This document shows positions 55,266-55,482 of a DNA stretch of 64,000 nt, piece by piece. Made by a program: the position numbers and the translations under genes. This stretch comes from Eledone cirrhosa (Eukaryota), in assembly GCA_964016885.1 (NCBI GenBank), contig OZ024760.1, positions 23,002,001 through 23,066,000 of the forward strand. Direction: 5' to 3'. Below the pieces are notes generated by a model, which was not told where the DNA came from, did not search any database, and saw nothing but the letters and a program-made list of their open reading frames with translations. Positions within the stretch are counted from its first letter, which is position 1. Each line of letters starts with the position of its first letter.

Positions 55266-55269
<4 letters not shown>

Positions 55270-55482
55270 GTAGCAGGTGAGTTTTATTGTAGTACAATAA
55301 AGCAATGCAGATATCGGATAAGAAGCACTCTACAGTTTGTTGATTTAAAACTGCACTATCCACAAGTGTTTTTTAACCTTCATATCATGTCTTCCTGTTT
55401 TATCTGATATTATTGCATGATGATATTTGTTTTTGAAATGCGCATAATAAAATACATGGAACTCTTTTAACCATCTTTTTTT

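What the first reader, a model, noticed from the sequence alone, without database searches (positions are those of the whole stretch)
55266..55302. Same 37-nt cap joined to two different truncation points of one PLE family
Seen: taatgtagcaggtgagttttattgtagtacaataaag (55266-55302, plus) matches the reverse complement of 44134-44170 at 35/37 positions. Both abut (TA)n and form the 5' end of a 'tgcgca' family insertion. One joins straight into endonuclease coding sequence, the other joins about 35 bp before the terminal repeat. Established: Penelope pseudo-LTRs can carry a short tail extension of a few tens of bp. Inference: this is a fixed segment added at the 5' junction during integration, either an inverted tail or a template jump, and so a mechanistic footprint.
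Basis: partly seen in the sequence, partly recalled or inferred. Interest (0 to 1): 0.7.

Follow-up and report, generated by a model that had tools for sequence, protein, structure and literature searches.

The report
Penelope tail flipped onto 5' end
The 37 bases are not a fixed cap but the outer end of this Penelope-type jumping gene's own downstream 'tail', sitting backwards at the front of two copies; related elements carry a twice-repeated small hairpin motif that likely sets two start points for copying, which would explain how these tails and flipped ends arise.

Summary
The 35/37 match is real, but it is not a fixed cap. It is the distal end of the family's ~90-nt 3' tail, placed head-to-head with the 5'-truncated body. 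Copy B carries about 77 nt of the tail and copy A 37 nt; public reads show other lengths and join the terminus to this segment on opposite strands. The element is a Hydra-type Penelope-like element (PLE). Inverted 5' arms and tails are known PLE features. What I did not find in print: full-length relatives carry a twin stem-loop motif (GCTC...GAGCACT) between hammerhead and start codon (17 of 19 leaders). 14 of 19 called element ends lie 0-12 nt 5' of one copy. Tails in this window open with the same motif, often with a compensatory G-C to A-U change. 14 of 18 two-armed insertions here pair a tailed with an untailed end. Likely mechanism (inferred): both target strands are primed, one at each motif, and the distal cDNA is cut short and joined head-to-head. 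Verdict: a new variant of a known kind, with a testable lead on the origin of PLE tails.

The parts
55266..55342 (-).
55283..55301 (-). 8-bp A/U hairpin at the inner end of the 37-mer; copy A's arm stops at its base
   Evidence: -4 kcal/mol; z -4.7 on the tail-sense strand, -0.7 on the other
55324..55334 (-). 3' half of the Hydra leader motif (TGTAGAGTGCT); its 5' half is missing at the junction
55338..55486 (+). Copy B: direct pLTR with a hammerhead that has lost 12 nt of core and stem II; untailed end; 55338-55342 is a likely 5-nt junction overlap (inferred)
44134..44170 (+). Copy A: inverted tail-only arm, 37 nt (the tail reads on the plus strand); its base at 44149 is a private change
   Evidence: G>A in about 100% of depth in all four runs
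43870..44133 (-). Copy A: last 87 codons and stop of the endonuclease, with CxxC-E...N-CxH motifs
43124..43869 (-). Copy A: 3' UTR with internal repeats
42960..43123 (-). Copy A: pLTR with type I hammerhead (CUGAUGA at 43054, palindromic UGCGCA loop); untailed end into (TA)n; its 5' edge (43113-43123) is a junction hot spot
19008..19331 (.). Third insertion of the same family: head-to-head pLTR pair, both ends untailed, arms 146/164 identical
62762..63205 (.). Sibling family F2: inverted tail-only arm (about 86 nt) on a plus-strand body with hammerhead
44466..44958 (.). Sibling family F3: inverted tail-only arm (about 83 nt, 44877-44958) on a minus-strand body
4893..5326 (.). Sibling family F2: head-to-head pair whose minus arm runs hammerhead, terminus and tail without a break; in-window proof of tail orientation

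Best explanation
The 37-mer is the outer end of this Penelope-like element's own 3' tail lying inverted at the 5' junction, and it was likely laid down during integration by a second, short reverse-transcription event. Shown: the segment continues into copy B's next 35-40 nt and follows the hammerhead terminus on the opposite strand; arm lengths and body junctions vary; full-length relatives carry two copies of a stem-loop motif 54-83 nt apart, and element ends fall just 5' of either copy. Inferred: the protein binds each motif and starts reverse transcription a few nt 5' of it. The endonuclease nicks both strands of (TA)n. One 3'-OH primes at the proximal site and copies pLTR and body. The other primes at the distal site and copies only tail, often stalling at motif 1 or at the tail hairpin. 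The two cDNA ends are then joined head-to-head through short microhomology.
For:: loose ends at 44134 equal copy B's continuation in 4 of 4 runs. A joint 42957<->44134 on opposite strands is seen in X16 (1139 reads, only 5 starts) and X5 (1 contig, another organism label). 8 of the 15 joints shown link the segment to the body at different points, 7 of them at 43113-43123; the sibling at 4893-5326 has the tail contiguous with its terminus in this orientation; 17 of 19 leaders with an upstream hammerhead have two motif cores (35 cores in 4,012 nt of leader against 6 in 102,276 nt of ORF); 14 of 19 non-edge ends lie 0-12 nt 5' of a motif (9 at motif 1, 5 at motif 2). Outer pair of the stem: G-C in 37 of 48 distinct locus motifs; A-U in 7 and G-C in 3 of the 13 window motifs matched (15 tried); 14 of 18 two-armed insertions have one tailed and one untailed end (exact pairing test p=0.03; 0.008 without one ambiguous case); three of the four tail-only arms stop in or at motif 1; the published Hydra-1_Ajap consensus starts 2 nt before motif 1 and has both copies. 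PMC11167929: a Poseidon PLE cuts and extends both strands, starts internally at two sites that bound the tail, needs RNA downstream of them, and is predicted to be a dimer.
Against: No full-length copy of this family was seen, so its own motif 2 and start codon are inferred from relatives. The letters between 42957 and 44134 in the inverted joint were not printed, and the 1139 reads probably come from one RAD locus. 5 of 19 called ends miss the 12-nt window (-13, -21, -25, -30, -40). The loci are not independent (L015 and L019 look like one insertion), and the stretches before the motifs are TA-rich, which could attract ends by target microhomology alone. The stem is only 4 bp, and covariation rests on one pair in my counts; whole-tail folding is unremarkable in 5 of 6 cases. 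The arms at 19 kb differ (146/164), which fits two RNAs rather than one; the arms at 57.8 kb are identical (158/158), which also fits fold-back. The pair count is hand-curated from one window. The junction microhomologies are inferred, not read.
Confidence: 0.7

Rival explanations
1. An ordinary inverted-pLTR-plus-tail insertion whose inverted pLTR was deleted afterwards (palindrome instability), leaving only tail.
For: Complete mixed pairs are common in the window. Microhomology-mediated deletions in PLEs are reported (PMC3846280, passages).
Against: In copy B and in 7 joints the direct arm is intact up to the 43113-43123 edge, while the whole inverted pLTR would have to be lost. Copy A's junction lies inside the endonuclease, where no central palindrome would exist.
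Confidence: 0.12
2. Two separate insertions: a very short tailed copy landed in the same (TA)n or in the element itself, in the opposite orientation.
For: All families here crowd into (TA)n and nest in each other. The 19-kb arms come from different-looking templates.
Against: There is no (TA)n at the inner junctions of A, B, 62.8 kb or 44.9 kb. The arm is always from the same family as the body and always head-to-head (4 of 4 in the window).
Confidence: 0.08
3. Fold-back or self-priming of the first cDNA (or an antisense template) makes the inverted arm, as proposed in PMC3846280.
For: Perfect palindromic junctions occur here; the 57.8-kb arms are 158/158 identical.
Against: The inverted arms of A and B hold tail sequence that is absent from their direct arms, so they cannot be copies of the first cDNA. 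It may still explain the symmetric pairs.
Confidence: 0.05
4. A fixed 37-nt cap, or the element's true 5' end in direct orientation, added by template jump or left by deletion.
For: CAG|GTGAGT looks like a splice donor on that strand. At 62.7 kb a cap-like segment follows another family's terminus across (TA)9.
Against: Length varies; the joint is on opposite strands; the conserved leader motif reads on the other strand. No go-back joint is among the 15 shown (16 not shown).
Confidence: 0.05

Closest known systems
Hydra-clade PLEs (Craig et al. 2021, PMC8557442; I read section 11, searched passages, and saw supplement part 53 and hits)
   Same: C-terminal endonuclease with CxxC and CxH around the conserved E and N; canonical hammerhead; (TA)n targeting. 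A Hydra-1_Obim consensus is listed. Published consensuses contain the twin motif (Hydra-1_Ajap; a GCCC/GGGC variant in Hydra-1_Crog, read by eye).
   Different: The passages I read do not mention the twin motif, tails of 54-90 nt or tail-only inverted arms. This family has a 750-nt 3' UTR.
PLE 'tail' and inverted 5'-truncated copy (PMC8557442 Fig. 2 legend; PMC3846280 passages)
   Same: An optional extension past the pLTR end, often at one end only, and a head-to-head inverted copy at the 5' end.
   Different: Described as 30-40 bp and attached to an inverted pLTR. Here it is about 90 nt, and the inverted copy is so short that it holds tail only.
Poseidon PAc internal initiation (Frangieh et al. 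2024, PMC11167929; parts 1-2 of 4 read)
   Same: Two internal start sites bound the tail; both strands are cut and extended; RNA downstream of the start is required; a dimer is predicted.
   Different: Another clade. There the sites lie inside the ORF and no duplicated binding motif was defined; the paper leaves the later steps unvalidated.
L1 twin priming
   Same: The second nicked strand primes on the RNA and gives an inverted 5' piece joined by microhomology.
   Different: In L1 the second primer starts upstream of the first at variable sites. Here it would start downstream at a fixed, motif-defined site.

Membership tests
Hydra-clade PLE | C-terminal GIY-YIG endonuclease with CxxC and CxH flanking conserved E and N | tested here: met
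   C46, C49, E52, N65, C74, H76 invariant in 25 sequences; 1186 relatives at E<=0.001. Pfam gave no hit for the fragment.
Hydra-clade PLE | CxCX5C linker, no CCHH, N-terminal RWK | tested here: inconclusive
   Those parts are missing from the window copies; they are present in the fragment's relatives.
Hydra-clade PLE | Hammerhead in the pLTR | tested here: met
   Core, stems I and II and palindromic loop by motif search and folding; no Rfam hit at gathering score; cleavage not tested.
Hydra-clade PLE | Insertion into (TA)n | tested here: met
Hydra-clade PLE | Placement by RT phylogeny | not testable with these tools
   No RT of this family was recovered.
PLE tail | Optional extension that follows the pLTR end on the sense strand | tested here: met
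   joint; sibling at 4893-5326; motif orientation
PLE tail | Length 30-40 bp | tested here: not met
   At least 77 nt in copy B; about 88 nt if X5's 51-letter loose end is the spacer; motif spacing 54-83 nt in 22 leaders.
PLE tail | Bounded by two reverse-transcription start sites | not testable with these tools
   Inferred from end positions only.
PLE inverted 5'-truncated copy | Same-family sequence head-to-head at the 5' junction | tested here: met
Fixed template-jump cap | Constant length and direct orientation | tested here: not met
L1-type twin priming (recalled) | Inverted piece comes from RNA upstream of the first priming site | tested here: not met
   It comes from downstream of the terminus; it works alike but is not the same geometry.

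The most novel reading that the evidence does not exclude
Hydra PLEs use a duplicated RNA stem-loop to load two protein subunits on one transcript, each priming one strand of the cut (TA)n. This one design sets the tail length, makes one end tailed and the other not, and yields tail-only inverted arms when the distal enzyme runs into the proximal complex. It would be a general explanation of the PLE tail and of inverted ends.
Probability: 0.35. Interest if true: 0.8.

Novelty: new variant of a known kind. Interest (0 to 1): 0.52.

Why it matters
How PLEs make their tails and inverted ends is open: one paper ascribes the tail to endonuclease resolution (PMC8557442), another to two start sites, with later steps unvalidated (PMC11167929). 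A conserved, duplicated 20-30-nt cis-element with ends mapping beside each copy gives exact mutations to test. It also gives curators a rule for Hydra boundaries. The 37-mer taken alone is ordinary.

Tried and rejected
No host genome is held, so the genome-wide count could not be run. Rfam: 0 hits in the window. Pfam: none for the fragment and none significant for 10 relatives. Word-indexed protein search for longer relatives: 0 of 79 candidates. Exact DNA scans for the family: 0 in metagenome contigs, 0 in viral contigs, and 2 bacterial 20-23-nt hits that do not extend and are treated as chance. No RNA holder listed. Earlier findings of the scan: none. Tail-only inverted arms among the 81 related loci: none clearly seen; the two convincing minus-strand motifs listed with a hammerhead upstream on a truncated copy, and L010, include the inverted pLTR. 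Those loci were chosen for a long endonuclease match and are short contigs. The direct-orientation and splice-donor reading was dropped. The cap's in-frame peptide was rejected as real ORF: relatives have HxxSF there. End calls were replaced by stricter ones because the motif anchor was sometimes wrong. Literature searches found no description of the twin motif or of tail-only arms. [quoted passage not shown]

Full report
Observation. 55266-55302 and the reverse complement of 44134-44170 agree at 35 of 37 positions and are the only two such places in the window. Both sit against (TA)n. The family has four hammerhead-bearing terminal repeats in three insertions: A (42960-44170, minus), B (55266-55486, plus) and a head-to-head pair C/D (19008-19331). 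The hammerhead core, stem I, stem II and the palindromic UGCGCA loop are visible in A, C and D; B has lost 12 nt of it. Rfam reports nothing at gathering score.

Element type. Copy A encodes the last 87 residues of an endonuclease with 1186 relatives at E<=0.001. The alignment keeps CxxC, E, N and CxH invariant. Its relatives have a CxCX5C linker, and full-length loci have an N-terminal RWK and ORFs of about 700 aa. These are the marks of the Hydra clade as defined in PMC8557442 section 11. No RT of this family was recovered, so the placement rests on the endonuclease end, the hammerhead and the (TA)n target. That the host is octopus-like is my impression from the repeats and was not tested.

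The cap is not fixed. B's 40 nt after the 37-mer do not align to A's 3' UTR. Four public runs were laid on copy A. The loose ends at 44134 are the reverse complement of B's next 30 nt in 1467 X16 reads (agreement 0.97; 2942 reads cover 44149), 31 X1 contigs and one X5 contig, and of its first 20 nt in one X4 contig. So B carries about 77 nt of a natural segment and A only 37. Of the 15 joints shown (16 more not shown), 8 link the segment to the body: 43011/44153, 43113/44137, 43120/44137, 43121/44134, 43122/44135, 43122/44136, 43122/44140 and 43123/44134. Table 5c adds 43045/44150. These imply arms of about 18-42 nt. The range is biased, because the reference holds only 37 nt and some rows have unknown letters between. 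Seven of the eight body sides fall at 43113-43123, the pLTR's 5' edge, where B and C/D also join and where X1 depth falls from 1.36 million to 0.2-0.4 million.

Orientation. One search lists a joint 42957<->44134 on opposite strands (1139 X16 reads from only 5 starts, probably one locus; one X5 contig). The terminus is therefore followed by the reverse complement of the segment; the letters between were not printed. In the window, a sibling family shows hammerhead, terminus and the homologous segment unbroken in that orientation (4893-5160, minus). The same family has a tail-only inverted arm of about 86 nt on a plus-strand body (62762-63205), and a third family has one of about 83 nt (44877-44958). 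The segment is thus the 3' tail, inverted.

What sets the tail. 80 metagenomic loci and one viral-collection locus of Hydra type were fetched (the best 80 of 490). Of 19 leaders with a hammerhead upstream of the ORF start, 17 hold two copies of GCTC-N(8-20)-GAGCACT, 54-83 nt apart in 22 of the 25 two-core leaders where both stems were anchored. Cores number 35 in 4,012 nt of leader and 6 in 102,276 nt of ORF. Ends could be called for 25 locus strands; 6 at contig edges were dropped. Of the other 19, 9 stop 0-12 nt before motif 1 and 5 stop 0-12 nt before motif 2; the five misses lie at -13, -21, -25, -30 and -40, at least two of them aligned to a divergent family. A rough uniform null gives p of 1e-7 to 2e-6, but the loci are not independent and the stretches before the motifs are TA-rich. 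Tails in six window families open with the same motif on the strand called sense here. The outer pair, read without constraining the 5' base, is G-C in 37 of 48 distinct locus motifs (1 U-A, 5 mismatched, 5 without the arm). Among 13 window motifs matched of 15 tried it is A-U in 7 and G-C in 3 (2 mismatched; copy B lacks the arm). The published consensus Hydra-1_Ajap begins 2 nt before motif 1 and has both copies, and Hydra-1_Crog begins 6 nt before a GCCC/GGGC variant (read by eye). Whole-tail folding beats shuffles in only 1 of 6 cases, so the motif is more likely a protein-read sequence with a short stem than a strong fold.

Asymmetry. Of 18 two-armed insertions curated by hand in the window, 14 have one tailed and one untailed end, 3 have none, and 1 is ambiguous and was counted as two-tailed. 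An exact pairing test gives p=0.029, or 0.008 without the ambiguous case. Three of the four tail-only arms end in or at motif 1 (B, 62.8 kb, 44.9 kb); A ends at the base of an 8-bp hairpin. At 63563-63581 the mirror case occurs: an 18-nt inverted arm from the proximal end, with a tailed direct arm.

Mechanism. Shown: identity, orientation, variable length, the twin motif and end positions. From the literature (PMC11167929, parts 1-2 of 4): a Poseidon PLE cuts and extends both strands, starts at two internal sites that bound the tail, needs downstream RNA and is predicted to be a dimer. Inferred: each motif loads a subunit that starts just 5' of it; one strand is primed proximally and the other distally; the distal cDNA is cut short; the two ends join by microhomology (TGTTG in B and AAG in A, both inferred). 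Fold-back cannot make A or B, because their inverted arms hold sequence that the direct arms lack, though it may explain the 158/158 palindrome at 57.8 kb. The 146/164 arms at 19 kb suggest that two RNAs are sometimes used. Later deletion of an inverted pLTR remains possible.

Known or new. Tails of 30-40 bp at one end and inverted 5'-truncated copies are described (PMC8557442 and PMC3846280, passages; PMC8969392, passages). I also read part 1 of 4 of PMC4209133, parts 1-2 of 5 of bioRxiv 10.64898/2026.07.22.740005, and passages of PMC7229834, PMC13282606 and PMC2377424. None of what I read, and none of the searches, describes the twin motif, tails of this length or tail-only inverted arms; subscription reviews were not available. 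Interest 0.52.

Noticed in passing
window 42950-43123 versus 43870-44133: pLTR depth is far above endonuclease depth in X1 (1.3-1.8 million against 0.04-0.1 million), with a sharp edge at 43113-43123. It would fit internal initiation close to the transcript's 5' end giving many solo pLTRs; untested.
   Followed up: partly
window 1017-1175, 39566-39790, 47850-48045, 50347-50545, 57481-57579, 58468-58566, 63563-63705: Seven copies of another family, most as head-to-head pairs that join inside or near the 3' half of a hammerhead-like motif with a long stem III; five have one 79-nt tail.
   Followed up: partly
window 57803-58141, 63280-63480, 50426-50543: Near-perfect palindromic junctions between inverted arms (158/158 at 57.8 kb; 56/57 at 50.4 kb).
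   Followed up: partly
window 42625-42940 and 44466-44958: Copy A lies between two insertions of another hammerhead family, all sharing (TA)n tracts: a nested cluster.
   Followed up: partly
window 1-92, 1575-1695, 23012-24090, 32562-32683, 39408-39572, 56204-56392, 58136-58264, 59487-59993: A high-copy 110-190-nt dispersed repeat, tandem at 23-24 kb and 59.5-60 kb; one copy interrupts a PLE arm at 58142. It looks SINE-like.
   Followed up: no
window 61600-62469: 100-nt inverted repeats around ORF fragments that look like a Tc1/mariner transposase (by recall).
   Followed up: no
window 12935-13372 (-): ORF end (MSVPIDKN...IPVVVGALG...RKILSM) that resembles the C-terminus of a LINE-type protein beside a long (AAT)n (by recall).
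   Followed up: no
window 19658-22717 and 33293-37419: Two 3-4-kb arrays of CAC/TAC-type triplets with extreme GC skew.
   Followed up: no
window 32005-32315, 37495-37885, 2278-2520, 24655-25027, 58849, 62615: Further hammerhead-like cores of other PLE-type families.
   Followed up: no
L036:455-472: A (TA)n tract lies inside a full-length leader, between motif 1 and motif 2, so part of the flanking (TA)n of insertions can be element-derived.
   Followed up: no
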